Source of the DNA: an uncultured Gammaproteobacteria bacterium
GTDB taxonomy: Bacteria > Patescibacteriota > Patescibacteriia > Magasanikbacterales > GWA2-37-8
NCBI GenBank assembly: GCA_964465205.1
Contig: CAYXJO010000005.1
Span: 4,552-68,551 of the forward strand
Direction: 5' to 3'
Length of the DNA stretch: 64,000 bases
Each line of letters begins with the position of its first letter. The first letter of the stretch is position 1. Below, piece by piece: positions 1-11,799 of this stretch. The position numbers and the translations under genes are program-made. The notes beneath the pieces are model-generated. The model worked only from the letters and a program-made list of their open reading frames with translations. It was not told where the DNA came from and did not search any database.

Positions 1-484
1 TACCACCGAGTGCCTGAACCGCCTCAAAGATAGGAATATAGTCCCGATCATTCACCAAAAACACAATGTTAGTTGCTTTGCCACTGGCGACCAGCATCAA
101 CACATCACAGATTAACTTGCCGTCAAGACCTTTTTCAGAGCGGGCAAAATGATCTCTGTACTGAGGGCTCAATTTTTGCAATTCTTCATCCGGAACGGTT
201 TCTATCGGTTCGCCGCACTCCTTTATTTGCCAATGATTTTTCTTGCCGGGCTCATCTGCTTCCGGCACAACAAGCATCGTTTTTATACGATTGTCATTTT
301 GTTTAAAATAATAGACAATACGAATCGTAGAGCCAACCCAAAGAGACCATTTTCGCATCAGTGCTTCTGTAAGAAGAGATATGTTCAATTTCTTATCATG
401 ATATTCCGTGTGCGTTCTCCTTATTTCATGGATGCTTGAAAATAAATGCGAACCGTCAATTATAAAATATCCTCTGTTATCCAT
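1..484 (-). CDS. NYN-domain (PIN-like) nuclease family protein, partial (runs off left edge of window)
   Basis: Not in the ORF track because it has no stop in the window. Minus-strand translation from ATG (482-484) is open to position 1: MDNRGYFIIDGSHLF...GKLICDVLMLVASGKATNIVFLVNDRDYIPIFEAVQALGG, which matches the NYN/LabA-like pattern (acidic residues, SGD-DF). Starts 1 nt after the stop of the upstream gene (TAAtATG). Confidence 0.5.
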   Translation of the reverse strand, partial: MDNRGYFIIDGSHLFSSIHEIRRTHTEYHDKKLNISLLTEALMRKWSLWVGSTIRIVYYFKQNDNRIKTMLVVPEADEPGKKNHWQIKECGEPIETVPDEELQKLSPQYRDHFARSEKGLDGKLICDVLMLVASGKATNIVFLVNDRDYIPIFEAVQALGG

Positions 485-485
485 A

Positions 486-782
486 TTATCTTTCACCACA
501 AAGAGGGTGGTATTTAGTTCTAATTAACCTTTCAAGTAATAAACGAAAGTTTTGGTCATTGCTTATATAGATATAAAGGCCGGTTTCACCAACTCCATTT
601 CTATACCAACACGTTTTTCGTTCGTGGTTTGGTATTCGAGAATTTATGTCACCCGTTTCTCCAACATCTACAACCTGATTATTATTATTTACTAATACAT
701 AAACACAGCCAAAATTTTGATTAAATTTTTTTGTGTGATAGTATGGTCCGGAAAATTGGAACCCCTCAATTTGAATAGCCAT
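486..782 (-). CDS. GIY-YIG nuclease domain protein (stand-alone, 98 aa)
   Basis: CVYVLVNNNNQVVDVGETGDINSRIPNHERK matches the GIY-(x10)-YIG-T...R...H(E) spacing of the GIY-YIG catalytic module. Confidence 0.55.
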   Translation of the reverse strand: MAIQIEGFQFSGPYYHTKKFNQNFGCVYVLVNNNNQVVDVGETGDINSRIPNHERKTCWYRNGVGETGLYIYISNDQNFRLLLERLIRTKYHPLCGER

Positions 783-790
783 ATTATTTA

Positions 791-1231
791 TTAATCAAAA
801 AATGATATCAAACAGTCATTTTTTATTTTAATATCATGTTCCCAAAATCTGCATACTTTCCAACCATTCCTTTTTAAGAAAGCGGTTGTTTTTATGTCCC
901 TTCGTCTATTGTTTTCAATTTTATTCCGCCAAAAATCATTTTTTAATAAGTGCTTCCATCTTGGATACTGCCAACCGTGCCAAAAATCACTATCTAAAAA
1001 AATACAAATTTTTTGTTTTGAAAAAACTATATCTGGATTCCCTCGCATACCACGAACATGCGTTTGAAACTTTACCTTCGTTTTTTTACGCAATTCCTTA
1101 ATAAAATCAGTTTCAAATTTGGTATTTTTTGAACGAATATGCGACATCAGCGATGATCTCTTTTTTGTCGAAAGTTTATCCGGCCTCCTCTTGGATTTGA
1201 AATTTCTGCCAAGATAATTTTTAATTACCAT
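791..1231 (-). CDS. vsr: Very-short-patch-repair (Vsr) DNA mismatch endonuclease
   Basis: MSHIRSKNTKFE...GNPDIVF...IFLDSDFWHGW...FWRNKIENNRRRD...GWKV..FWEH aligns motif-for-motif with E. coli Vsr (RSKNMR, PDFV, GCFWH, FW..KI..N..RD, GW.V..WE). Start chosen at M18 (1231), giving a TAAtATG junction with the upstream gene. Confidence 0.8.
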   Translation of the reverse strand: MVIKNYLGRNFKSKRRPDKLSTKKRSSLMSHIRSKNTKFETDFIKELRKKTKVKFQTHVRGMRGNPDIVFSKQKICIFLDSDFWHGWQYPRWKHLLKNDFWRNKIENNRRRDIKTTAFLKRNGWKVCRFWEHDIKIKNDCLISFFD

Positions 1232-1232
1232 A

Positions 1233-2264
1233 TTATAATCCCAAATGGAACACTTCGGAAGGTAAACAGCCGTCAAAATCATTCTTTTTATCGATCAAAT
1301 CCAACCACTGCTTTAATCTATTGGTGTTCACTTTGTCCACACGCCAATAATAGGCTAACTTTGCCGGATCTAAGGTGTTAATGGTGGATTTTATGTCTCC
1401 AGCGTATTCTTTGAGGTGATGCAAAATTCTTGGCACTGTTATTTTGCGTTTTCCAATTTTTACATTCTGTTGACCGCCGGCCGTGAAAGTATCTCGAATA
1501 TTCGAACTGACGGCGCCGTAGTTCGTGACTAGATACGAAGCCACTCTTTCAAATTTTAACGAGCTGGATCCAAAAATTTCAGGAAATAATATCATGCTCT
1601 CTAAAATAAATTTTGTCTTTTCTTTCTCGCTAAATTTACTAAAAGGTCGAATTATTGGATTCGCAGCGGCATCCGGCTGATCAATCCACCATAGTTCTTC
1701 ACCGTCGGTTAATTGTTTGCGATAATAATCCTTAATTCTTTGAATCGGATTTTCTTCTTTTCTTAGCGTGTCATAATCCACGCCTATCTTATTAAAAATC
1801 GACTGTCCATTCGCCAAATCCATGTTGATTTTGTAGCGAGGTGAGTGTGTCACGCCTACATCGCATAAACAGTCCTGGTATAGTCGGTATTTAATGTCGA
1901 AACCACCACCAAACTTACCGAAAAACATAAAAATTTTTTCGACCCCGTCTACCCGCGTGGTTTCTAAAACACTATTACCGGTTGACATCCACTTATCGTC
2001 TGTGGTCGCCTTAACTTCGGTCCCGAAAAATTTTTTCGCTATTATGTCAGGGAATGTCTGTGGGCCCGTTTGAACAACATCCCCCGCGAAAGCCGTGCCC
2101 TTAGATGCCTTTAACATCATCTGAAAGGTTAGATTTTCAAATTCCACTCCACCCATTTTCTTTATGGAGTTTTGTTGAATGTCCTTGACGCACAAATTTT
2201 TAGTGACTGATAGCAAACTAACAAAATCACTTTCTTTGATTTGGCCATTTTTAACGTAAATCAT
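1233..2264 (-). CDS. Putative PD-(D/E)xK type II restriction endonuclease (cognate R of the downstream/upstream Dcm-type MTase)
   Basis: 343-aa protein with no recognisable family. Contains FPDIIAKKFFGTEVK (PD...ExK spacing typical of the restriction-endonuclease fold). Sits between a C5-MTase and Vsr in one operon, which is the classic R position. Confidence 0.4.
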   Translation of the reverse strand: MIYVKNGQIKESDFVSLLSVTKNLCVKDIQQNSIKKMGGVEFENLTFQMMLKASKGTAFAGDVVQTGPQTFPDIIAKKFFGTEVKATTDDKWMSTGNSVLETTRVDGVEKIFMFFGKFGGGFDIKYRLYQDCLCDVGVTHSPRYKINMDLANGQSIFNKIGVDYDTLRKEENPIQRIKDYYRKQLTDGEELWWIDQPDAAANPIIRPFSKFSEKEKTKFILESMILFPEIFGSSSLKFERVASYLVTNYGAVSSNIRDTFTAGGQQNVKIGKRKITVPRILHHLKEYAGDIKSTINTLDPAKLAYYWRVDKVNTNRLKQWLDLIDKKNDFDGCLPSEVFHLGL

Positions 2265-2271
2265 ACTGCGA

Positions 2272-4029
2272 TTATTTTAAATTTTCATCTAAAAATTTTT
2301 CTATGGACGCGGCAACGTGCCAAGCCAAAACTGGCGGCACGGCGTTTCCGATTTGTTTGTAAGCTGCCGAGGTGGAGGGATAAAACACAAAATCATCGGG
2401 AAAAGACTGGATTCGCGCCGCTTCTCTAGCTGACAGTCTTCTTTTACCGTTCCAGTGATACTCTATATTGCCGTGATGTTCAGTGCGCATTGTTGGGCCG
2501 GGTTTATCGGGGGAAACCGTGTTGTTACCTTGTCCATTATTTTTTATCGCTTTGGACCAAAAATGATTAGGAGCGGCGCCCTCTTTCACCTTTTCTAGAT
2601 CACCGATGGCTTGTTTGAGTGGCACCCAATTATCTTTTGTTAGTATGGGATCTGGATGACTAAATGGCGGAAGTTTACTTTTGAGCGTGCCGACAATAAT
2701 AACCCTCTGCCTAATCTGTGGCACGCCGTAGTCGGCGGCGGTAAGTAATTTATATACCACATGGTACCCTAAGGCCGCAAAATCCTTTACAATTGTTTCG
2801 ATGGCCGCGCCGTCGTTCATTGTTAAAAGTCCACGAACATTTTCGGCGACAAAAAGCACCGGTTTCGTTCTTCGGATAACTTCAATCATGCTTTGATACA
2901 AAAGACCACGTTTGCTGTTAAAACCTTTGCGCTTGCCGGCGTGGCTAAAATCCTGACACGGGAATCCACCCAAAACAATGTCAACTTTCGGCGGAATCGG
3001 TTTATCTAACGAGGAAACCTTTTTGTTATCAAGAATTTGTCTAATATCACCACACACGATCGGGTGTTTGAAGTATCTTTGATAAGTAACGCAAGCGTGT
3101 TCGTCAAAATCGTTAGCCCAAACGATTTCAAATTTATTTGCTTTGTATTTTTTGCCCAAAGAATTAAATCCTCCGGTAAAGCCTAGGTCCAACCCGCCGC
3201 AACCGGCGAACAATGACGCAACTGTGTATTTGTTTTGAATATTATTTTTCATAATTAAATTTTCGTAATTTCCATAAATGTTTGCTTGGTGAGTGTCCAC
3301 CAACACATCGAATAATGTTGATAGTTGGCCTTCAGCTAAATACTTGACATTGTTAAAATCCGCGCCGTTTTTCGCCCCCAAAACGCTATGAGCGTTTTTA
3401 TCTCCTATTATTATAAAGTCCAAAACATTAATACCCATTGTTTTGCCGGCGGTGACGATCTCGCTGGCAATTTGTTCATCTTGGACGCTTGGCGTTGGAT
3501 CGCCCGACGGATGATTATGTAACAATATAACGCTGGCCGCTCTAAGTTCCAAAGCGGGCGCGAAAACGTCACGGGGGTGAATTATACTTCGATCTAAAGT
3601 GCCGACCGAAATAATTTCTTTTTTAATCAGCGCGCAACGAGCGTTTAAATATAAACAAATTAAATGCTCTTGTTTTTTATCTCTTAAATCTGACGCCATG
3701 GCGACTGCGTCGCCGGGCGACAATATAATTTTTTCCAAAATATTCTGTTTATCAAAATATCTTTTCGCCAAGGATAGCATGGCTGTTATTTGTAAGGCTT
3801 TAGCCTGGCCAATACCTTTGATTTGTTTGAGGTCGTCAACCGTTGCGTTTAGAAGATTGCCACCAAATTTATTAACAATCTTTTGCGCCAAAACTTTCAC
3901 ATTAACGCCTTTAATTCCATTGCCCAAAACAATCGCTAACAGCTCCGCGTCAATTAAGGCGTCGGGGCCTTTCTCTAAAAATTTTTCTCGAGGCCGTTCA
4001 AATTTAGGAGTATCCTTTATCTTTACCAT
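2272..4029 (-). CDS. Fusion protein: N-terminal RadC-like (HhH + JAB/MPN) domain, C-terminal C5-cytosine DNA methyltransferase (Dcm-type)
   Basis: N-terminal ELLAIVLGNGIKGVNV...LLHNHPSGDPTPS (RadC/UPF0758 JAMM motif HNHPSG). C-terminal FAGCGGLDLGF (motif I), GGFPCQDFSHAGKRKG (motif IV PCQ), FVAENVRGL (motif VI ENV), QIRQRVIIVG (VIII) and IGNAVPPVLA (X). Single uninterrupted 585-aa ORF. Confidence 0.8.
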   Translation of the reverse strand: MVKIKDTPKFERPREKFLEKGPDALIDAELLAIVLGNGIKGVNVKVLAQKIVNKFGGNLLNATVDDLKQIKGIGQAKALQITAMLSLAKRYFDKQNILEKIILSPGDAVAMASDLRDKKQEHLICLYLNARCALIKKEIISVGTLDRSIIHPRDVFAPALELRAASVILLHNHPSGDPTPSVQDEQIASEIVTAGKTMGINVLDFIIIGDKNAHSVLGAKNGADFNNVKYLAEGQLSTLFDVLVDTHQANIYGNYENLIMKNNIQNKYTVASLFAGCGGLDLGFTGGFNSLGKKYKANKFEIVWANDFDEHACVTYQRYFKHPIVCGDIRQILDNKKVSSLDKPIPPKVDIVLGGFPCQDFSHAGKRKGFNSKRGLLYQSMIEVIRRTKPVLFVAENVRGLLTMNDGAAIETIVKDFAALGYHVVYKLLTAADYGVPQIRQRVIIVGTLKSKLPPFSHPDPILTKDNWVPLKQAIGDLEKVKEGAAPNHFWSKAIKNNGQGNNTVSPDKPGPTMRTEHHGNIEYHWNGKRRLSAREAARIQSFPDDFVFYPSTSAAYKQIGNAVPPVLAWHVAASIEKFLDENLK

Positions 4030-4030
4030 A

Positions 4031-4255
4031 TCATTTGATCAATTCATCAATACTAATTTCCAACCCGGCCGCAATTTTCACGACGGTTTGTATAGATGGC
4101 TTGGTGATAACATTCGATTCAATTTTTGTGAGCGTGGCGTATGGAATATCACATTTCCGCGCCAGTTTATCCTGCGTCAAACCCTGCTTCATGCGCAGTT
4201 TTTGAATCTTATCCCCAACTGTCTCTTGTTTGTTTTTACTTTTTCCACTATCCAT
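4031..4255 (-). CDS. HTH XRE-family transcriptional regulator (controller/C-protein-like)
   Basis: 74 aa, LRMKQGLTQDKLARKCDIPYATLTKIESN is a canonical Cro/C1 HTH. First gene of the operon, 1 nt upstream of the MTase ATG. Confidence 0.7.
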   Translation of the reverse strand: MDSGKSKNKQETVGDKIQKLRMKQGLTQDKLARKCDIPYATLTKIESNVITKPSIQTVVKIAAGLEISIDELIK

Positions 4256-4308
4256 AGTATAATAGTATAATAGTATAGTTAGGAAAGCATATGTCGGTTC
4301 CCAACCGA
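4256..4308 (-). promoter_or_regulatory. Operon control region: 2.5 tandem copies of AGTATAAT (minus strand ATTATACT, -10-like) abutting the C-gene ATG, plus palindrome TCGGTTcccAACCGA (4294-4308)
   Basis: Direct read of sequence. A candidate C-protein operator or promoter for the minus-strand operon. Confidence 0.35.
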
Positions 4309-4554
4309 TAATATTCTATCACGATTCGCCAAACCAATCAACAAAGAAAAGTTTGCTTTTGGCCAACATAAAGTTCGAGCCGACATTTTTACGGGTTCTT
4401 TGGCGGTTTTTACCCGCCGGAGCCCTCGTTTGTCCGGCGCGGGCGGAAGGAAGGGGTGTGGGGAGGGAATTCCGCCCGCGCGCCCCTAAATTTCGTCCAA
4501 ATCCGTTCGTATTTTTTCGTAAGTGGTGAGCCAGTCAGGACAAGTGGGGTTTTC

Positions 4555-4602
4555 GGCGATTACGCGCCAGCCCCTTTTGGCCAAACAATCGAATTTTTTG
4601 TC
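4555..4602. repeat. Left copy of a perfect 48-bp inverted repeat (GGCGATTACGCGCCAGCCCCTTTTGGCCAAACAATCGAATTTTTTGTC)
   Basis: Exact reverse complement of 6021-6068. The imperfect match extends about 10 bp further outward (GGGGTTTTC / GAAACGGCCCC). Confidence 0.9.
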
Positions 4603-4655
4603 TTGTCCCGCCACGGCGGGACGCCAAAAGCAAACTTTTCTTAATCGTTATCAAT

Positions 4656-6131
4656 ATGTTCAAATATTTTCTCTACGCTCGCAAGTCAACAGACGAGGAA
4701 GACCGTCAGGTTTTGTCCATCGAGGCCCAACTCGACGAACTCAAAGAATTTGCCGTTAAAGAAAAACTGGAAATCGTCGCCTCGTTTCACGAGGCAAAAA
4801 CCGCCAAAGAACCCGGCCGTAATATATTCGGCGAAATGTTATCGCGAATTTCCGCCGGCGAAGCCAACGGTATTTTAGCTTGGCATCCTGATCGGCTTGC
4901 CCGCAATCCGATTGACGGTGGGCAAGTGATTTACATGGTTGATACCGGAAAAATAAATTCCCTCAAATTTCCGACCTTTTGGTTCGAAGACACTCCACAG
5001 GGCAAGTTTATGCTTAACATTGCTTTCGGGCAGAGCAAATACTTCATAGATAACCTATCGGAGAATGTAAAGCGCGGGCTACGCCAAAAACTTCGCCGAG
5101 GAGAATGGCCGGGCTGGGCCCCGATAGGTTATCTAAATGATTTACGGACTCACACCATAATCGTGGACAAAGAAAAACATAAACTTGTAAAAAGGATTTT
5201 TGAAATGTACGCGACCAGCAATTATGGTTTAAGGGAACTGGCGGGCATTGCCAATAACTATGGATTGGTAAGCCAAACAAACAAAAAGATGTCGGGCAGT
5301 ATGATCCAGCACATTTTACAAAATCCTTTTTACTGCGGAGTGTTCCGTTTTAACGGCGAACTGCACGAGGCCAAACACGAGCCGATTATTACCAAGAAAC
5401 TTTTTGAAGAAGTAAAAAATGTCCTTTTGCGCCGTGGCCGTCCGCATAAAAAGAAAAAGCACGAATATATTTTCACCGGTTTAATTAAATGCGGGGTTTG
5501 CGGGTGTTATATCACGGCCGAACGGCAAAAAGGACATATCTATTATCGCTGTACCAAAAAGAAAAGCGTTTGCGATGAAAAATATGTCCGCGAGGAAGAC
5601 ATAACCGAACAAATAAAACAATTTCTTCAAAAAGTTTCTTTACCCGACGATTGGGCCGAAAAAATGTTGAATAAAATTGAGCAAGATAAAAATAACGAGG
5701 CCCAATCTAACGGTGCCCTTGTTCAATCGTGCCAAGACGAGGTACAAATAATTGATCAAAAATTAGACAAACTTTTGGACTCTCATTTGGATGGCACGAT
5801 TGAGAAGCAAATCTATATCAAAAAGAAAGAAGTTTTTATTAACAGAAAACTAACTTTAGAGGGTAAGGTCAAAGAATTTTTGAACAAGGGCGCTAATCGG
5901 CTCGAACCGGTGAGGGAATTTATTTTATCCAATATTAAAGCCAAAAAAACCGCCTTGGCGGGCGATTTGGCGGAAATTCGCGAATCATTACAAAATGTCG
6001 GCTCGAACTTTATGTTGAAAGACAAAAAATTCGATTGTTTGGCCAAAAGGGGCTGGCGCGTAATCGCCGAAACGGCCCCACATTCGACGTGGCTCCCAGG
6101 GTCGGATTCGAACCGACGACCAACTCGTTAA
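4656..6131 (+). CDS. Large serine recombinase (resolvase/invertase catalytic domain + recombinase domain + zinc ribbon)
   Basis: N-terminal YARKSTDEEDRQ...SIEAQ (catalytic Ser motif), GILAWHPDRLARN, C-terminal Cys cluster CGVCGC...YYRC. 491 aa. The last ~14 codons are read-through into the antisense strand of the tRNA. Confidence 0.85.
   Translation: MFKYFLYARKSTDEEDRQVLSIEAQLDELKEFAVKEKLEIVASFHEAKTAKEPGRNIFGEMLSRISAGEANGILAWHPDRLARNPIDGGQVIYMVDTGKINSLKFPTFWFEDTPQGKFMLNIAFGQSKYFIDNLSENVKRGLRQKLRRGEWPGWAPIGYLNDLRTHTIIVDKEKHKLVKRIFEMYATSNYGLRELAGIANNYGLVSQTNKKMSGSMIQHILQNPFYCGVFRFNGELHEAKHEPIITKKLFEEVKNVLLRRGRPHKKKKHEYIFTGLIKCGVCGCYITAERQKGHIYYRCTKKKSVCDEKYVREEDITEQIKQFLQKVSLPDDWAEKMLNKIEQDKNNEAQSNGALVQSCQDEVQIIDQKLDKLLDSHLDGTIEKQIYIKKKEVFINRKLTLEGKVKEFLNKGANRLEPVREFILSNIKAKKTALAGDLAEIRESLQNVGSNFMLKDKKFDCLAKRGWRVIAETAPHSTWLPGSDSNRRPTR
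6021..6068. repeat. Right copy of the 48-bp inverted repeat, inside the 3-prime end of the recombinase ORF and 22 bp from the tRNA-Asn 3-prime end
   Basis: Exact reverse complement of 4555-4602. Confidence 0.9.
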
Positions 6132-6164
6132 CAGCGAGCTGCGCTACCGCTGCGCTACCTGGGA
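6090..6164 (-). tRNA. tRNA-Asn (anticodon GUU), 75 nt with encoded CCA
   Basis: Hand-folded: acceptor TCCCAGG/CCTGGGA, D stem GCGC/GCGC, anticodon stem GCTCG/CGAGT with loop CTGTTAA, T arm GTCGG-TTCGAAT-CCGAC, discriminator G, CCA. Confidence 0.85.
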
Positions 6165-6176
6165 ATTTGTGAAAAT

Positions 6177-6205
6177 ATTATACTATGAGTATTGTAAACT
6201 GTCAA
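6177..6205 (-). promoter_or_regulatory. Sigma70-type promoter for tRNA-Asn (TTGACA-17-TATAAT on minus strand)
   Basis: Minus-strand TTGACAgtttacaatactcatagTATAAT ends about 12 nt before the tRNA 5-prime end. Confidence 0.6.
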
Positions 6206-6530
6206 CAGGGAGTTATTAAAATATATTAAACTGCTAAAGATGTTGTTGTCAAGTTTGTTTATTTTAGTATTTTTTTTGTTTCCATTTTAACGTGAGATAA
6301 AAATGGCTAAGTCTAGCATTAAATAAGCCGCTTTGTCGGATTTATCCACAGATTTATTTGACACTGTTCTAGTGAGTATGTTAACGTTAATGCATATGAA
6401 TTTGTCCCAGCAAAAAAATAGTAAAAGTTTAATTCAGATTTGGATGTTGATTAGCAACGTCATGTTTTATGCGTTGTTTTTTTGGTGGGGTGAAGATGAT
6501 TTTGTGAAAGCGTAATTTTGTAAAGTCATA

Positions 6531-6570
6531 ATCACCCCACCGCAAGTGGGGTGATTTAATTTGTTCTTTA
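6531..6570 (+). terminator. Hairpin ATCACCCCAC-cgcaa-GTGGGGTGAT followed by a T-rich tract
   Basis: Perfect 10-bp stem with a 5-nt loop, then TTTAATTTGTTCTTT. Confidence 0.5.
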
Positions 6571-6725
6571 AATTTAATTTGATCAGTGCTATTGGTGCGA
6601 TTGTTATCACGGAACACCCTTTTTGGATAGAACATGTTTGTCTCCAACAAAGGTGTTCCGTCTAATTGCATGCAATAACCTAGGCGGATCATATCCGGGA
6701 TCAAAAACAAAACAGGAGTACGTAC

Positions 6726-8111
6726 ATGAACGTCGAATTGCACTCTCTCTTCACTCCGCATAATGCCGAAACCAAAAATCTGGGCCCGACGATTGATCGC
6801 AAGATTCAATCTTCGGTGATGTTGTGTCACACCTTGCCAGACTACCAGGTGGTTTATCCTCAAGCCGTGGTGCAGGCACTGTGCGAATTGTACACCGAGT
6901 ACAATCTCGCCTTCCGCAAACTGGTTGAAGCCAATAGAGAATGGTCCGACGACTACCACCACTTGATGTACGGTCCCGATTGCACCCCGGTGAACTTCGC
7001 TGTCCAGATCGACATGTTGGGGTTGCCGGAGTGGTTTCTGCAAGAGGCGACGACTATGCCCGTCAACCTGTTGCGCGAACTGTTGCGCGGTACGGTGTTC
7101 GAGATCGAAAACTCCTTGGCCATGTACCAACTGCTCGAACGTACTTGTGCCAATGGCGATGGCCCGTCGTACTTCCAGCCGCGTTTTCGTCAGGCGTTGG
7201 ACGAGTTGCGCCGGCGCCACGGTAAGCCCATCGCGTTACTGGCTGTAACCCAGCAAAAGTATCAAGCGATGCGTGAGTCCGAATTTGGCAAGCAGGATGG
7301 AGACGCGCTGTCGAACCAAGAAGTTCGTGATCTGTCCGGATTCGATTACTTCTTTGGTCCTGATGAATTCCGCCACCATGTCCAAGAGAAGGGTGGATGC
7401 GAATTCATGCTGTACGTGCGTTCATCCGATCCGGTGGCCAAACTCAAGAAACCCAAATTGAGCGTCGATCATCCGCTCCTGGGCGACGCACAAATGCGCC
7501 GTGTCATCAAAGCGAACGCGATCACGTTCAATGTGGATGCTCCGGAAATGCAATACCCGCAACGCATCAACGACACCAAAGAATACATGGGTCCGCTCGG
7601 CATGGGGTACGAAATCAGCCGTGTAGAAGACCTTATGTCCGGTGAAGTGTGCGAACACCTGGCCACCAGCCATTCGTTCGAAGAATATCATGGCCAACGT
7701 TTGTCCGACGGGTTTGCTCAATACCTGGCGCGTCGTGGAATGCCGATGCAAGCAATCGAATCCGGTTCTGTCCACTTGCGGGCCAAACCGGCCAAGGGTA
7801 CTTACGGTTGCTACGGCCATGTGCGCGGCCCCTTGTCCAGCGGCGCCAAATTCCGCAAAGATTTGGCTTACGAATTGAGGCAACGAGGTGGTACATACGT
7901 GGTGCAGCCGGAAATGACCACGCCGCAGATCGTCAATACCAAAGACGGCGTCACGTACACGTACATCGATCGCAATTTTCTCGCCTTTACCAATGGCCAT
8001 CCGGTTTTCCTCGGCGGCTTCCGTTCGATGTTGCCGGTGGACACCAACGAGGCCCACAAGGGTCGAGTGCATGGTAATCGCGACACGGTCTGGGCGGAAA
8101 TCGTAGCCTAG
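6726..8111 (+). CDS. GC-rich ORFan, possible ATP-grasp-like enzyme (461 aa)
   Basis: Composition is far GC-richer than its flanks (by eye mid-50s % versus ~40%). Strong RBS AACAGGAG before the ATG. C-terminal AKPAKGTYGCYGHV...YVVQPEM...NGHP resembles the K-P-x-x-G-s-x-G-x-G-V / Q-E ATP-grasp signature. The overlapping antisense ORFs are GC-driven shadows. Confidence 0.45.
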   Translation: MNVELHSLFTPHNAETKNLGPTIDRKIQSSVMLCHTLPDYQVVYPQAVVQALCELYTEYNLAFRKLVEANREWSDDYHHLMYGPDCTPVNFAVQIDMLGLPEWFLQEATTMPVNLLRELLRGTVFEIENSLAMYQLLERTCANGDGPSYFQPRFRQALDELRRRHGKPIALLAVTQQKYQAMRESEFGKQDGDALSNQEVRDLSGFDYFFGPDEFRHHVQEKGGCEFMLYVRSSDPVAKLKKPKLSVDHPLLGDAQMRRVIKANAITFNVDAPEMQYPQRINDTKEYMGPLGMGYEISRVEDLMSGEVCEHLATSHSFEEYHGQRLSDGFAQYLARRGMPMQAIESGSVHLRAKPAKGTYGCYGHVRGPLSSGAKFRKDLAYELRQRGGTYVVQPEMTTPQIVNTKDGVTYTYIDRNFLAFTNGHPVFLGGFRSMLPVDTNEAHKGRVHGNRDTVWAEIVA

Positions 8112-10215: not shown

Positions 10216-10800
10216 CTAAGACCCAAACTCACTTCCTTTCCATTTTTTGGTGGACAAATAGTAGGTCCTCTTTCCGTCAGGAATAGGACCTGTGATATCG
10301 TTTGCGTGTTGGTTGGTGTAATCCACATGAAACAACACTGGCACTTTATGCCGAGGGAATTCTCCCTTGAGAATTTCTTTGGCTCGCATCGTCATGTTGA
10401 GCACCAGCACCAAATCCATTTTGTTGTGAGTGGCGGCTCCACAAGGAGCATGTGCCACGAGCACGATGGTCCGATCCAGCCCCTTCAACAACAGTGCGTC
10501 GCGAATGTTTTTGATTGCGACAGCACTTTGCTGTATTTCCGAATTGAGTACGGACTCAGGTGGTATCACCAATGGACCCCCGTTTAGTCCCGGGGTGTGG
10601 TGCAGACGAACAGAGCCCCGTTGGCCCAGGCCACTCAAGAACCCACGGCTATCCGGGGTTTGGTCACAGTCTGGGCAGTCGCAGACGACCGCCCCTTGGG
10701 CCAGCTCTATTGAGTTTTCCTGTACATCGTTTAGAATGCCTGCTTCTCGCAGGCGTCTGATCAGGACCAGTTGGTCCTGTGGTATCACGAGTTTGGCCAT
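10216..10800 (-). CDS. GC-rich ORFan (about 194 aa from MAKLVIPQ..., strong GGAGGG RBS)
   Basis: Local GC is clearly elevated. Contains CDCPDCD and VLVAHAPCGAATH motifs (possible metal/thiol site). No family recognised. Confidence 0.4.
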   Translation of the reverse strand: MAKLVIPQDQLVLIRRLREAGILNDVQENSIELAQGAVVCDCPDCDQTPDSRGFLSGLGQRGSVRLHHTPGLNGGPLVIPPESVLNSEIQQSAVAIKNIRDALLLKGLDRTIVLVAHAPCGAATHNKMDLVLVLNMTMRAKEILKGEFPRHKVPVLFHVDYTNQHANDITGPIPDGKRTYYLSTKKWKGSEFGS

Positions 10801-10935
10801 AATGAGCCCTCCATTTCGCCGATTCCGTCGGCTACGGTGTCCGTGTTGTATGGACATGTGTAAAAGATAGGTCAAAGAACTGTATTGGGCACCATTTTAG
10901 CACTATATTATTATAATGTCAATACTTTTTTGTTT

Positions 10936-10971: not shown

Positions 10972-11799
10972 ATGTTGGATCAAGAAAGTGTGATCAATAT
11001 TCACCGTCAATTGCAAGCTGTTTATCTTCACGGCGATGTTTTGCTTTGTGGTAGTTATTTATCCGGCGAAGCCGGTGAAGACAGTGATTTGGATTTTACT
11101 CTTTTAACAGATAATTTTCGTTATTTTAATTTTTATCGTCGTCACAAAGAATTAATTTCGCAGATTAAATTACAAAACCCCAAAATAAGTTTAGCAATTT
11201 GGCCCAGGTGGTACTGCGCACTTGGTTGGCATTATGTATATGGTCGCAATTTGGCCGGTAAAATTTTTACTAGTCCATTGCGCAAGAAATTTGTTATTTG
11301 CACCGGTTTGAAATTGGCTTTTTTTTACTGGTTGAAATTCAGTGTTACGAAAAACGCGAAATATTTGATCCAGTCCGCTCGACAAATAGCGGCGGTACAG
11401 GTGGTAGCCAATTTAGCGGCTCACGATTTGGGTTTAGATTTTTCGCGTAAGTTTATCAATGATCATACACATTTATTGATGCCGCAGAGCACAGATGTCT
11501 TAATTCGAATTATCAATTCCCCTCCGGATTATGCACCGGGATCGGGCGATAGTTACTCGGTTTTACAAATTATTCAAGATACTTATAGACAACTACGGAG
11601 TTACTTTAGTTTTTCACCGGCCAACTATTTGTTGTACAATTTTAAATTTTTAATGCGTGGCTCAATCGAATTTGTTTTTAGAAATCCCGATAAATATTTG
11701 ATTAACATAATTGCCGGCGCCACACAAGCGGACCAGAAAGAGCGAGAGCGAATTTATCAACATCTAAATATTGTCATCTTTCCCATTATTGTGATATAA
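10972..11799 (+). CDS. Pol-beta superfamily nucleotidyltransferase domain protein with C-terminal extension
   Basis: GSYLSGEAGEDSDLDFTLL matches the minimal NTase G-S-x9-D-x-D motif. Confidence 0.5.
   Translation: MLDQESVINIHRQLQAVYLHGDVLLCGSYLSGEAGEDSDLDFTLLTDNFRYFNFYRRHKELISQIKLQNPKISLAIWPRWYCALGWHYVYGRNLAGKIFTSPLRKKFVICTGLKLAFFYWLKFSVTKNAKYLIQSARQIAAVQVVANLAAHDLGLDFSRKFINDHTHLLMPQSTDVLIRIINSPPDYAPGSGDSYSVLQIIQDTYRQLRSYFSFSPANYLLYNFKFLMRGSIEFVFRNPDKYLINIIAGATQADQKERERIYQHLNIVIFPIIVI

What the first reader, a model, noticed from the sequence alone, without database searches (positions are those of the whole stretch)
4555..6164. Large serine recombinase gene bracketed by perfect 48-bp inverted repeats, abutting and reading into tRNA-Asn
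Bases 4555-4602 and 6021-6068 are exact reverse complements (48/48), with an imperfect ~10-bp extension. The left repeat lies 53 bp upstream of the recombinase ATG. The right repeat lies inside the last codons of the ORF, 22 bp from the 3-prime end of a minus-strand tRNA-Asn, and the ORF only terminates inside the tRNA gene. Geometrically this is either an IS-like unit (terminal inverted repeats plus a single recombinase gene, 1514 bp) inserted next to the tRNA, or a DNA segment that the recombinase can invert. Serine-recombinase mobile elements with long perfect TIRs are not a well-described class (IS607-type elements lack TIRs). The element also marks the boundary of the R-M/defence island at a tRNA, a classic integration hotspot.
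Basis: seen in the sequence. Interest (0 to 1): 0.75.

Follow-up and report, generated by a model that had tools for sequence, protein, structure and literature searches.

The report
Integrase gene between inverted attachment sites
The perfect inverted repeat around this recombinase gene is the shared arm of two attachment sites of a small mobile element that inserts at the end of tRNA genes and carries restriction-modification genes; this layout recurs in well over a hundred related loci and I found no published description of it.

Summary
The repeat is real and longer than reported: 4551-4604 and 6019-6072 are 54/54 complementary. It is neither an IS with terminal repeats nor an artefact.

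The 491-aa ORF is a large serine integrase whose 3' end overlaps its own attachment site. Comparison with 164 related loci shows a conserved design:
- The integrase sits next to, and reads into, the 3' end of a tRNA gene (attR; crossover within the last 6 nt of the tRNA).
- An intact inverted attP lies 20-170 bp upstream of the integrase start.
- The reported repeat is the integrase-side arm (P) shared by these two sites.
- A second long inverted repeat (the P' side) pairs the internal attP with attL, 1-10 kb to the left.

The element is therefore attL-cargo-attP(inverted)-int-attR, 2.4-11.5 kb, with cargo that is mostly restriction-modification. In the window attL lies beyond the left edge, and the R-M genes at 791-4255 are cargo.

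A few loci have the tRNA joined to the other arm, or tRNAs on both arms, so both copies are used. The purpose of the internal attP (cassette inversion, either-way integration or self-repression) is inferred, not shown. Short antisense patches of int at fixed positions remain unexplained.

The parts
791..4029 (-). Cargo (inferred): Vsr endonuclease (791-1282), a 343-aa ORF without a family hit that is a candidate restriction enzyme (1233-2264), and a RadC/JAB-C5 cytosine methylase fusion (2272-4029).
   Evidence: Pfam hits. By analogy with L083 and L084, where R-M or other defence-type genes lie between attL and the internal attP, and with the R-M-dominated cargo of 62 delimited elements. attL itself is not in the window.
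4031..4255 (-). XRE-type HTH gene, divergent from int; a probable regulator of the element.
   Evidence: PF01381 at 1.5e-15. Homologues lie on the minus strand 290-830 nt upstream of int in 36 of 101 loci, and inside the element wherever attL is known.
4235..4271 (+). Two overlapping promoter-like sites (TTTACT-17-TATAAT, TTTCCA-18-TATAAT) pointing towards int.
   Evidence: Consensus scan only, 10/12 matches each. Not evidence of function.
4344..4414 (+). Three abutting antisense patches of int: D' 4344-4363 (rc of 4623-4642, 5' UTR), B' 4364-4389 (rc of 5992-6017), C' 4392-4414 (rc of 4793-4815).
   Evidence: The same three patches occur at the same int coordinates in about 43 loci, with C' abutting the second repeat.
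4415..4503 (.). Distal part of the P'-side arm (called X), with a G+C-rich hairpin. In relatives this is one arm of the second inverted repeat (IR2), whose partner sits at attL.
   Evidence: Conserved with L001. In 62 relatives, 40-136 nt here match attL in inverted orientation. The partner is not present in the window.
4504..4527 (-). P' half-site of the internal attP. Read on the minus strand from the core it is ACCACTTACGAAAAAATACGAACG. The CGAAC motif (4505-4509) starts at nt 25 from the core start.
   Evidence: The same motif starts at nt 20 on the tRNA side, a 5-bp shift like that between attP and attB half-sites (PMC3783163).
4528..4533 (-). Core of the internal attP (GAGCCA on +, TGGCTC on -), identical to the last six bases of tRNA-Asn.
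4534..4604 (-). P arm of the internal attP. 4551-4604 is the left copy of the perfect 54-bp repeat. 4534-4550 has diverged from its partner.
4605..4622 (+). G+C-rich hairpin GTCCCGCC-AC-GGCGGGAC directly after the repeat.
   Evidence: Read from the sequence. Hairpins of different sequence occupy the same place in L001, L021, L023, L025, L035 and L057. Function unknown.
4623..4642 (+). Patch D in the int 5' UTR (14-33 nt before the ATG), complementary to D'.
4656..6131 (+). Large serine integrase, 491 aa. Contains patches C (4793-4815) and B (5992-6017). The last 13 codons (WLPGSDSNRRPTR) are encoded by the tRNA gene.
6019..6089 (+). P arm of attR, inside the 3' end of int. 6019-6072 is the right copy of the perfect repeat.
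6090..6095 (+). Core TGGCTC = tRNA-Asn nt 71-76 (incl. CCA). The crossover is placed at its last two bases (tRNA nt 71-72).
   Evidence: The repeat stops 6 nt into the tRNA in 53 of 81 relatives, with the rest at 7, 8 or 4 nt. The motif distances fit the LI integrase half-site numbering. In the window the arms have already diverged 17 nt earlier.
6090..6164 (-). tRNA-Asn(GTT), the target gene (B' side of attR). The T-loop motif TTCGAAC is at 6107-6113 on +.
6177..6205 (-). Consensus promoter TTGACA-17-TATAAT of the tRNA gene, firing towards int (convergent).
   Evidence: 12/12 match. Consensus scan only.

Best explanation
Bases 4344-6095 are the recombination module of a small integrative element sitting at the 3' end of tRNA-Asn. 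The module is a large serine integrase gene (4656-6131) between two attachment sites that lie in inverted orientation and share the same integrase-side arm (P).
- Right site, attR: P arm 6019-6089, 6-bp core TGGCTC 6090-6095 (the last six bases of the tRNA), then the tRNA body.
- Left site, a complete attP: P arm 4534-4604, core 4528-4533, P' arm from 4527 leftwards.
- The 54-bp perfect repeat is the part of the two P arms that is still identical.

Shown by comparison:
- The same layout occurs in most related loci.
- The repeat ends at a fixed point 6 nt inside tRNAs of 11 amino-acid specificities.
- The outer flank of the left site carries the T-loop-like motif CGAAC 5 bp further out than the tRNA does.
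- A third site, attL (core plus the same P' arm, inverted), bounds the element 1-10 kb to the left.
- Cargo is mostly restriction-modification.

Inferred:
- The element entered by attP x attB recombination with strand exchange at tRNA nt 71-72.
- It supplies its own copy of the discriminator base and CCA.
- Its integrase thereby exchanged its own C-terminal tail (...WLTTYEKIRTDLDEI) for a tRNA-encoded one (...WLPGSDSNRRPTR).
- The free circle should carry two identical inverted attP sites that separate int from cargo, and either can be used for integration.
- In the integrated state the spare attP allows the int cassette to be turned round, either by homologous recombination across the long identical arms or by the integrase if it accepts attR as a partner.
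- Turning it round would reverse int relative to the convergent tRNA promoter and restore its own tail.
- The spare attP can also recombine with another tRNA gene.

I put about 0.85 on the anatomy and about 0.35 on the proposed use of the internal attP.
For: Integrase identity:
- Three LSR domains are present. Y7, R9, K10 and S11 are invariant in 38 homologues.
- Most of the 120 listed homologues end in W-x-x-x-DSN/ESN, the translation of a tRNA 3' end read backwards.

Family-wide repeat:
- 131 of 165 loci have the repeat at >=40 nt, including 97 of 108 loci with adequate flanks.
- Median length is 98 nt (range 45-159). 67 are 100% identical.

Arms evolve together:
- Window and L001 differ at 5 or more positions in the repeat, and both arms carry each change.

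Junction geometry:
- The right site is a convergent tRNA in 81 loci: Ser 28, Gln 19, Asn 11, Leu 9, Arg 6, Ala 3, others 1 each.
- The repeat reaches 6 nt into the tRNA in 53 of these, 7-8 nt in 19 and 4 nt in 7.

Half-site logic:
- The motif [CT]GAA[CT] starts at nt 20 on the tRNA side in 70 of 78 loci, and at nt 25 on the outer flank of the left site in 60 of 78. The window has TACGAAC there.
- In LI integrase the zinc-ribbon motif occupies positions 16-24 in attP and 11-19 in attB (PMC3783163).
- With that numbering the crossover falls on core bases 5-6, exactly where identity stops.

attL:
- In 62 of 90 loci with enough left flank, the core plus 40-136 nt of the P' side recurs in inverted orientation 0.6-9.6 kb to the left, with unrelated DNA beyond it.

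Both attP copies are used:
- L081 (arms only 82% alike, so its assembly is unambiguous) and L141 (97-nt arms) have the tRNA on the upstream arm and int reading into an attP-type site. L071 and L008 show the same arrangement.
- L123 has inverted tRNA-Ser genes on both arms.

Arrays: in L012, L162, L003, L067, L068 and L142, int reads into the P' arm of a neighbouring element.

Cargo:
- 150 ORFs are dominated by R-M families, and 122 of them run co-directionally with the tRNA.
- The family is almost absent from viral contigs.
Against: - No reads were available, so neither inversion, nor a circular form, nor an empty site was observed for this element.
- attL is not in the window, so the full structure here is by analogy with L083 and L084 (70% identical integrases).
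- In the window the 18 nt of the two P arms next to the core differ at about 10 positions (6073-6089 vs rc of 4534-4550). In L001, L083 and L084 they are identical or nearly so. One of the window's two sites may be impaired.
- Canonical serine integrases recombine only attP x attB, or attL x attR with a directionality factor (PMC3783163 abstract). Integrase-driven attP x attR inversion would therefore be unusual.
- The arrays could have formed because a heterologous integrase does not recognise the resident P arm.
- Only 5 of about 90 informative loci are in an alternative configuration.
- Repeats longer than the assembler's k-mer make orientation in some contigs unreliable.
- About 50 bp would suffice for an att site. 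The extra length of the repeats is not explained by site function.
- The crossover dinucleotide is placed by analogy, not measured.
Confidence: 0.7

Rival explanations
1. The repeat and the patches act mainly at the RNA level. Any transcript entering int from upstream carries sequences complementary to the int 5' UTR, to two internal segments and to the 3' end. The message would fold back on itself or be cut as double-stranded RNA, keeping integrase synthesis very low. This resembles the fold-back inhibition of read-through transcripts known for IS10 (from my own knowledge). On this view the internal attP copy is incidental or serves as an operator.
For: - D' pairs with the 20 nt that end 14 nt before the ATG. 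In subfamily 2 a patch covers -26..-7.
- There is no room for a promoter between the left arm and the ATG in many loci (30-60 nt). Promoter-like sites lie left of D'.
- Patches stay 95-100% complementary where the main repeat has decayed to 82-89% (L053, L057, L081).
Against: - Among 108 mismatches in 10,011 paired positions, G:U-compatible ones are not enriched on either strand: 32 and 38 versus 38 others. Power is low for the patches alone.
- The helices cross one another (pseudoknotted order) in subfamily 1.
- Patches at the attL end could pair only in a transcript spanning the whole cargo.
- This view does not explain why the left site keeps a complete P' half-site with the 5-bp motif shift, nor why tRNAs are found joined to it.
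Confidence: 0.2
2. The left arm is a relic. An ancestral inverted duplication of the int 3' end with its attP (or of the whole gene, later eroded by deletions) is kept identical by gene conversion between the arms and has no function today.
For: - In subfamily 2 the patches are collinear with an inverted int copy, as deletions would leave them.
- Long inverted repeats are known to homogenise by recombination.
- Some loci show decay: 13 of 131 repeats are below 95% identity.
Against: - The layout is retained in most loci at 49-65% integrase identity, across Patescibacteria, Omnitrophota, Planctomycetia, Nitrospirales, Ignavibacteriota and others.
- Patches of 14-29 nt are too short for gene conversion, yet they co-vary with int.
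- The P' half-site motif and its spacing are conserved.
- The site has been used (L081, L141, L123).
Confidence: 0.08
3. An IS-like element of about 1.5 kb, consisting of the recombinase gene and its two terminal inverted repeats, inserted beside the tRNA.
For: - The geometry in the window fits.
- Many 1.5-1.8-kb contigs hold only the gene and its repeats (L005, L014, L065, L076, L120, L122).
Against: - Those short contigs are what assemblers produce at any long inverted repeat.
- The 210 bp left of the left arm are conserved with the integrase and contain antisense int patches.
- The outer flank of the left arm is an attP-type half-site paired with attL kilobases away.
- There is one copy per window.
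Confidence: 0.02
4. An assembly artefact: a collapsed or chimeric inverted duplication.
For: Contigs of this family often break at the repeat.
Against: - The same structure, with matched substitutions in both arms, occurs in an independent sample.
- It also occurs in about 130 loci from many projects, including long single contigs of 0.77 and 1.8 Mb and a complete genome (L025, L035, L030).
- A 54-nt repeat is shorter than the usual final k-mers.
Confidence: 0.01

Closest known systems
Phage-type large serine integrases (Listeria A118/LI, phiC31, Bxb1, SPbeta SprA)
   Same: Same three-domain enzyme class. It uses short attachment sites, and a recognition motif lies 5 bp further from the crossover in the attP-type half-site than in the attB-type half-site. 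Integration yields hybrid attL and attR.
   Different: - Sequence is remote: a PDB search finds only isolated catalytic domains.
- The target is the 3' end of tRNA genes of at least 11 specificities, with the universal T-loop as the apparent recognition motif.
- attP overlaps the 3' end of int, so integration changes the protein's tail.
- A second, inverted, intact attP is kept inside the integrated element.
- The arms are identical over 45-159 bp.
- The elements are 2.4-11.5 kb, are not phages and have no recognisable directionality factor.
Tn4451/Tn5397-type transposons moved by large serine recombinases TnpX/TndX (own knowledge, not tested here)
   Same: Non-phage elements excised and integrated by a large serine recombinase encoded at one end of the element.
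   Different: As I recall, those have short imperfect terminal repeats and a GA crossover, low or different target specificity, no internal second site and no tRNA target. Not compared by sequence here.
Hin/Gin/Cin invertible segments
   Same: A serine recombinase gene lies inside, or beside, a segment bracketed by two inverted crossover sites (Hin lies inside its segment; own knowledge).
   Different: Those use small invertases of about 190 aa, 26-bp sites, an enhancer and Fis. They only invert, and the segment is not a mobile element's integration module. Here the two sites differ in kind (attP and attR), and inversion has not been observed directly.
Yeast 2-micron plasmid (Flp/FRT) and similar circles divided by two long inverted repeats that each hold a recombination site
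   Same: The inferred free form is a circle in which two long inverted repeats, each containing the recombinase's site, separate two unique segments, one of which encodes the recombinase.
   Different: Flp is a tyrosine recombinase that recombines identical sites and serves copy-number amplification of a replicon. No replication genes are seen in the cargo here, and the circle itself has not been observed.
CTXphi of Vibrio cholerae (two inverted attP sites; own knowledge)
   Same: Two attP-like sites in inverted orientation persist in the integrated element.
   Different: In CTXphi they lie about 90 nt apart, fold in the single-stranded phage genome into the actual substrate, and are used by the host tyrosine recombinases XerCD. 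Here they are 1.4 kb apart and flank a serine integrase gene, and double-strand cleavage of a folded stem would break the chromosome.
Tycheposons and other tRNA-targeting cargo islands (10.1101/2020.12.28.424599)
   Same: Small cargo-carrying elements integrated at tRNA genes, often in arrays, carrying defence or niche genes. 27 of the 937 elements in that study have a large serine recombinase.
   Different: Those are overwhelmingly tyrosine-recombinase elements with direct partial-tRNA repeats. No internal inverted att site or long inverted repeats are described in the passages read.

Membership tests
Large serine recombinase / serine integrase | N-terminal resolvase-type catalytic domain with the serine nucleophile | tested here: met
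   PF00239 at 2.3e-20 over residues 5-151. Y7, R9, K10 and S11 are invariant in 38 homologues.
Large serine recombinase / serine integrase | Recombinase domain followed by a zinc-ribbon domain | tested here: met
   PF07508 at 2.6e-19 (173-259) and PF13408 at 1.3e-10 (272-324). C279, C282, C299 and C306 are conserved.
Large serine recombinase / serine integrase | Coiled-coil motif inserted in the zinc-ribbon domain, which controls directionality | not tested
   Residues about 330-440 have no domain hit. No coiled-coil or structure prediction was run.
Large serine recombinase / serine integrase | attP and attB half-sites carry the same distal motif, shifted 5 bp towards the centre in attB | tested here: met
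   The motif starts at nt 25 (internal site, 60/78 loci) versus nt 20 (tRNA side, 70/78). The rule is taken from PMC3783163. This is a comparative inference, not a binding assay.
Large serine recombinase / serine integrase | Strand exchange at a 2-bp crossover shared by the sites; unidirectional unless a directionality factor is present | not testable with these tools
   A 6-bp common core is seen. The dinucleotide is placed at core bases 5-6 by analogy only. No factor was identified.
   DNA left of the left arm is conserved with int and forms a second repeat with attL.
   There is one copy in the 64-kb window. In relatives the unit is always at a tRNA 3' end or next to another element. Whole genomes were not surveyed.
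IS607 family | Small serine recombinase TnpA, usually with TnpB, and no terminal repeats | tested here: not met
   The protein is 491 aa with Recombinase and zinc-ribbon domains. No TnpB-like ORF is adjacent.
Hin/Gin-type inversion system | Small invertase with a C-terminal HTH acting on two identical short inverted sites | tested here: not met
   The enzyme is of the large class, and the two sites differ beyond the core.
Hin/Gin-type inversion system | Both orientations of the segment coexist in a population | not testable with these tools
   No reads were available. Among relatives, 4 loci have the opposite arrangement relative to the tRNA. That could also arise from integration through the other attP.
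tRNA-integrated genomic island | Integrase gene adjacent to the 3' end of an intact tRNA gene | tested here: met
   and 81 relatives.
tRNA-integrated genomic island | Repeat of the tRNA 3' end at the far boundary | tested here: inconclusive
   Not found in window 1-4343. In 62 relatives it is present as the 6-bp core joined to the P' arm.

The most novel reading that the evidence does not exclude
The whole element may be built to fold as one strand. The two long repeats (int arms and cargo arms) and five short antisense patches of int meet in junctions with 0-1 nt linkers:
- the second repeat with E:E' and C:C';
- the first repeat with the hairpin, D:D' and B:B'.

In such a fold both unique segments are looped out and the attL and attR cores are brought together, restoring the uninterrupted tRNA 3' end on that strand. 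This would point to a single-stranded stage in the element's life. Candidates are uptake by natural transformation in these episymbiotic bacteria, or excision without a directionality factor by replication across, or cutting at, the folded junction. Alternatively it points to a long tRNA-promoter-driven transcript that is processed at the stems. Separately, the integrase may invert its own gene between attP and attR, which would be a serine integrase reaction outside the accepted pairing rules.
Probability: 0.15. Interest if true: 0.9.

Novelty: new variant of a known kind. Interest (0 to 1): 0.75.

Why it matters
- It defines a large, previously unremarked family of very small mobile elements that move restriction-modification and other defence genes among Patescibacteria (CPR) and several other phyla. 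Few mobile elements are understood in these lineages.
- It gives directly testable att sites for many serine integrases, which are useful as genome-engineering tools. All read a universal landmark (the tRNA T-loop and 3' end) and appear to be retargeted between tRNAs by changing a 6-bp core.
- The retained inverted attP, the two long perfect repeats and the co-varying antisense patches are not predicted by current models of serine-integrase elements. They may reveal a new control or transfer step.
- Practically, the repeats explain why contigs of these genomes break at this gene, and why annotated integrases of this family carry spurious tRNA-encoded C-termini.

Tried and rejected
- Rfam on 3800-7000 at E<=1 and on the whole window at gathering threshold found only the tRNA. 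There is no known RNA family in the G+C-rich stretch 4415-4550.
- Folding 4405-4660 as DNA gave z = -1.56, which is unremarkable.
- I tested whether the outer flank of the left arm is a decayed tRNA 3' half. It is not: the repeat never extends beyond 6-9 nt of tRNA, and the shared motif sits 5 bp out of register.
- I tested whether the patches encode a peptide. B and C fall in different frames on the minus strand, and no ORF of 50 aa or more lies there.
- I looked for a pseudo-attB inside int at the E/C break. The TGG I first placed there is at int nt 113-115, inside patch E, so the idea was dropped.
- The G:U wobble test for RNA-level pairing showed no bias. It is inconclusive for the short patches.
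- An exact-protein look-up of the window's integrase found it is not on record, so the source sample and reads could not be reached.
- The viral contig scan gave 3 weak hits, so this is not a phage family.
- Six literature searches and two papers read in part gave no description of this architecture.
- Several derivations of the patch order from a simple inverted dimer, or from single inversions between patch pairs, gave no sensible product and were abandoned.
Full report
**1. The observation**

Bases 4551-4604 and 6019-6072 are perfectly complementary over 54 nt, with 1414 nt between them. About 2e-23 such pairs are expected by chance in this window, and there is no further copy.

The ORF 4656-6131 (491 aa) has Resolvase, Recombinase and Zn_ribbon_recom domains, so it is a large serine recombinase. 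tRNA-Asn(GTT) lies at 6090-6164 on the minus strand. The right arm ends 17 nt before the tRNA's 3' end, and the ORF stops about 40 nt inside the tRNA.

Each is the reverse complement of a piece of the int region:
- 4344-4363 (called D') = rc of 4623-4642, in the 5' UTR.
- 4364-4389 (B') = rc of 5992-6017, the segment next to the right arm.
- 4392-4414 (C') = rc of 4793-4815.

**2. It is real and conserved**

The closest relative, L001, comes from a different sample and its integrase is 91% identical. It has a 78-82-nt perfect repeat in the same place, the same three pieces, and the same tRNA-Asn. Where L001 and the window differ inside the repeat, both arms carry the change. Sequence similarity between the two loci starts at D' and not at the repeat, so DNA left of the left arm belongs to the element.

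Scans of one genome per species and of metagenome contigs gave 160 more loci with integrases 48-66% identical. Most are from Patescibacteria, with some from Omnitrophota, Planctomycetia, Nitrospirales, Ignavibacteriota, Margulisiibacteriota and others. Only 3 weak hits came from viral contigs.
- 131 of 165 loci have the repeat at 40 nt or more. That is 97 of the 108 loci whose flanks are long enough.
- Median length is 98 nt, the range is 45-159, and 67 are 100% identical.
- Many contigs break at the repeat, or consist of the gene and its arms only. Assemblers do this at any long inverted repeat.

**3. What the two arms are**

The C-termini of the database homologues gave the first lead. Most end in W-x-x-x-(D/E)SN..., which is the backward translation of a tRNA 3' end (TGG = CCA; GATTCGAAC = T-loop).
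- In 81 loci the integrase is followed by a convergent tRNA: Ser 28, Gln 19, Asn 11, Leu 9, Arg 6, Ala 3, and Glu, Pro, Val, Trp, Lys 1 each.
- The repeat stops 6 nt inside the tRNA in 53 of them. It stops at 7-8 nt in 19, as chance extension predicts, and at 4 nt in 7, apparently where no CCA is annotated.

I aligned the right junction with the reverse complement of the left site at the tRNA end. Both read P arm, then TGGNNN, and then diverge.
- The right junction continues into the tRNA, whose T-loop motif [CT]GAA[CT] starts at nt 20 in 70 of 78 loci.
- The left site continues into element DNA that carries the same motif starting at nt 25 in 60 of 78 loci. The window has TACGAAC at 4505-4511 on the opposite strand.

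For the Listeria phage integrase, the zinc-ribbon domain's motif occupies positions 16-24 of an attP half-site and 11-19 of an attB half-site. That is a shift of 5 bp towards the crossover (PMC3783163). Applying that numbering here puts the crossover on bases 5-6 of the core, which are tRNA nt 71-72. That is exactly where the identity between the two sites ends.

The left site is therefore a complete attP-type site (P, core, P'). The right site is attR (P, core, tRNA). The reported repeat is their common P arm, which overlaps the last 25-45 codons of int.

**4. The other end of the element**

In 62 of 90 loci with at least 700 nt of left flank, the core plus 40-136 nt of the P' side recurs in inverted orientation 0.6-9.6 kb further left, with unrelated DNA beyond it. 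This is attL.

The integrated element is thus attL [core-P'] - cargo - [P'-core-P] (internal attP, inverted) - int - [P-core-tRNA] attR.
- It has two unique segments, each bracketed by a long near-perfect inverted repeat.
- Element sizes are 2.4-11.5 kb, with a median of 3.75 kb.
- In the two nearest relatives with long flanks (both at tRNA-Asn), L083's cargo is three unknown ORFs, a LexA/S24-N6_N4 methylase, an RE_ScaI enzyme and an HTH gene. L084's cargo is two unknown ORFs, an AAA ATPase and an S8 peptidase.
- Of 150 cargo ORFs scanned, R-M families dominate, with some SMODS and LexA/S24 proteins. 122 of the 150 run co-directionally with the tRNA.
- An XRE-type HTH gene homologous to window 4031-4255 lies divergent from int in 36 of 101 loci.

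In the window no attL is present in 1-4343. The element runs off the left edge, and the HTH, RadC-methylase, candidate endonuclease and Vsr genes are its cargo by analogy.

**5. Other configurations**
- L081 has arms only 82% alike, so its assembly is unambiguous. L141 has 97-nt arms with one mismatch. In both, the tRNA is joined to the upstream arm and int reads into an attP-type site. L071 and L008 look the same, but their contigs end at the second arm.
- L123 has inverted tRNA-Ser(GCT) and tRNA-Ser(TGA) genes on the two arms. So the internal attP has recombined with a second tRNA gene.
- In L012, L162, L003, L067, L068, L142 and L159, int reads into a P'-type arm of different sequence. In L162 and L003 that arm has its own inverted partner further right, and in L012 it is the attL of the next element. 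These are tandem arrays in which an incoming attP used a resident hybrid site.

Homologues whose tails read ...W-x3-L-N-E-I-R-T-F-F... (P0080, P0085, P0105, P0108, P0110) are integrases reading into an attP-type site. The window's equivalent, read from the left arm, is ...AENPTCPDWLTTYEKIRTDLDEI. The tail actually encoded is ...AETAPHSTWLPGSDSNRRPTR.

**6. How it most likely works**

Shown: the anatomy above.

Inferred:
- A circular form carries two identical inverted attP sites that separate int from cargo.
- It integrates through one of them into the 3' end of a tRNA gene, supplying the discriminator base and CCA from its own P arm.
- Integration swaps the integrase's tail.
- The other attP stays intact.

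I favour, at modest confidence, the reading that the spare site lets the element integrate either way round and lets the int cassette be inverted. Inversion would change int from convergent to co-directional with the tRNA promoter, which is a 12/12 consensus match at 6205-6177, and it would restore the native tail.

The strong excess of the convergent arrangement (about 85 loci versus 4) suggests that orientation matters.

Two cautions apply. Canonical serine integrases pair only attP with attB, so inversion may depend on homologous recombination across the long arms. And in the window the 18 nt of the two P arms next to the core have diverged.

**7. The unexplained part**

In about 43 loci (subfamily 1, including the window) the patches sit at fixed places:
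- D' (rc of int -43..-17), B' (rc of 1335-1362) and C' (rc of 138-157) abut one another, and C' abuts the internal arm of the second repeat.
- E' (rc of 93-123) abuts the attL arm, and F' (rc of 82-105) often follows it.
- B abuts the first repeat.

The order E' F' [cargo] D' B' C' is a circular permutation of a collinear inverted int copy.

In subfamily 2 the patches lie between the left arm and the ATG and are collinear (rc of 1334-1347, 1289-1303, 360-376 and 265-288).

Patches co-vary with int between genomes, and they stay 95-100% complementary where the main repeat has decayed (L053, L057, L081).

On one strand all the helices meet in junctions with 0-1 nt linkers, and such a fold would bring the attL and attR cores together. 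But the fold is pseudoknotted. Mismatches show no G:U bias on either strand (32, 38 and 38 of 108).

Candidate roles are silencing of read-through transcripts, a single-stranded DNA stage, processing of a long tRNA-promoter transcript, or a relic. None could be tested here.

**8. Comparison with what is known**

The enzyme is a member of the large serine recombinase class, but it is remote from solved ones. In how it works, the element is a serine-integrase island at a tRNA gene.

The differences from described systems are:
- the tRNA 3'-end / T-loop target, used across many tRNAs;
- attP overlapping the int stop region;
- the retained inverted attP;
- the two long repeats;
- the patches.

Analogies are the Hin segment (recombinase inside an invertible segment), the 2-micron plasmid (a circle split by two repeats holding recombination sites), CTXphi (two inverted attP sites) and tycheposons (tRNA-targeting cargo elements, mostly with tyrosine recombinases). 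It is a member of none of them. Six full-text searches found no description of this layout. Absence from that library is not proof of novelty.

**9. Verdict**

The IS reading is rejected. The inversion reading is plausible but unproven. The finding opens onto a widespread and apparently undescribed variant of serine-integrase mobile elements. I rate interest at 0.75 and classify it as a new variant of a known kind.

Noticed in passing
window 2272-4029 (-), with 1233-2264 and 791-1282: A single ORF fuses a RadC/JAB domain (UPF0758_N + RadC) to a C5 cytosine DNA methylase. It is followed by a 343-aa ORF with no Pfam hit (a candidate restriction enzyme) and by a Vsr mismatch endonuclease. The RadC-methylase fusion is unusual.
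   Followed up: no
window 6726-8111 (+) and 10216-10875 (-): Two ORFs (461 and 219 aa) have no Pfam hit and lie in G+C-rich patches (about 55% and 47% against about 41%) just right of tRNA-Asn. In L001 and L002 the tRNA is followed directly by TerC and BacA, so these look like separate insertions on the other side of the tRNA.
   Followed up: no
window 6177-6205 (-): A perfect TTGACA-17-TATAAT promoter for tRNA-Asn points into the integrase gene. 122 of 150 cargo ORFs in relatives run in the same direction, so tRNA read-through could transcribe antisense int and the cargo.
   Followed up: partly
L013 ~1780-1860, L030 ~11470-11560 (complete genome CP174360.1), L065 ~1590-1680: The sequence next to int has a tRNA acceptor end and T-arm, but ARAGORN calls no tRNA. 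These may be intron-containing tRNA genes of the kind reported for Patescibacteria (PMC13011429, abstract only).
   Followed up: no
L123 33-1940: The integrase cassette lies between two inverted tRNA-Ser genes (GCT and TGA). This implies a chromosomal rearrangement made through the internal attP.
   Followed up: partly
window 5992-6017 and 4364-4389; all subfamily 1 loci: The codons for the invariant IGSNF motif (GGCTCGAAC) themselves contain the CGAAC / T-loop-like motif that marks the P' and tRNA half-sites. Patches B and C share the pattern AAAAA-N(8-9)-GAAC. This may be coincidence, or it may be a trace of att-site sequence absorbed into the ORF.
   Followed up: no
window 6073-6089 versus 4534-4550: The two P arms differ next to the core by compensating indels that keep the reading frame (TAPHST versus NPTCPD). 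The nearest relatives have identical or near-identical arms up to the core.
   Followed up: partly
L049 8106-8564; L012 3-988: Decayed or second integrase genes lie immediately left of attL. This shows tandem arrays of these elements at one tRNA, with the older copies eroding.
   Followed up: partly
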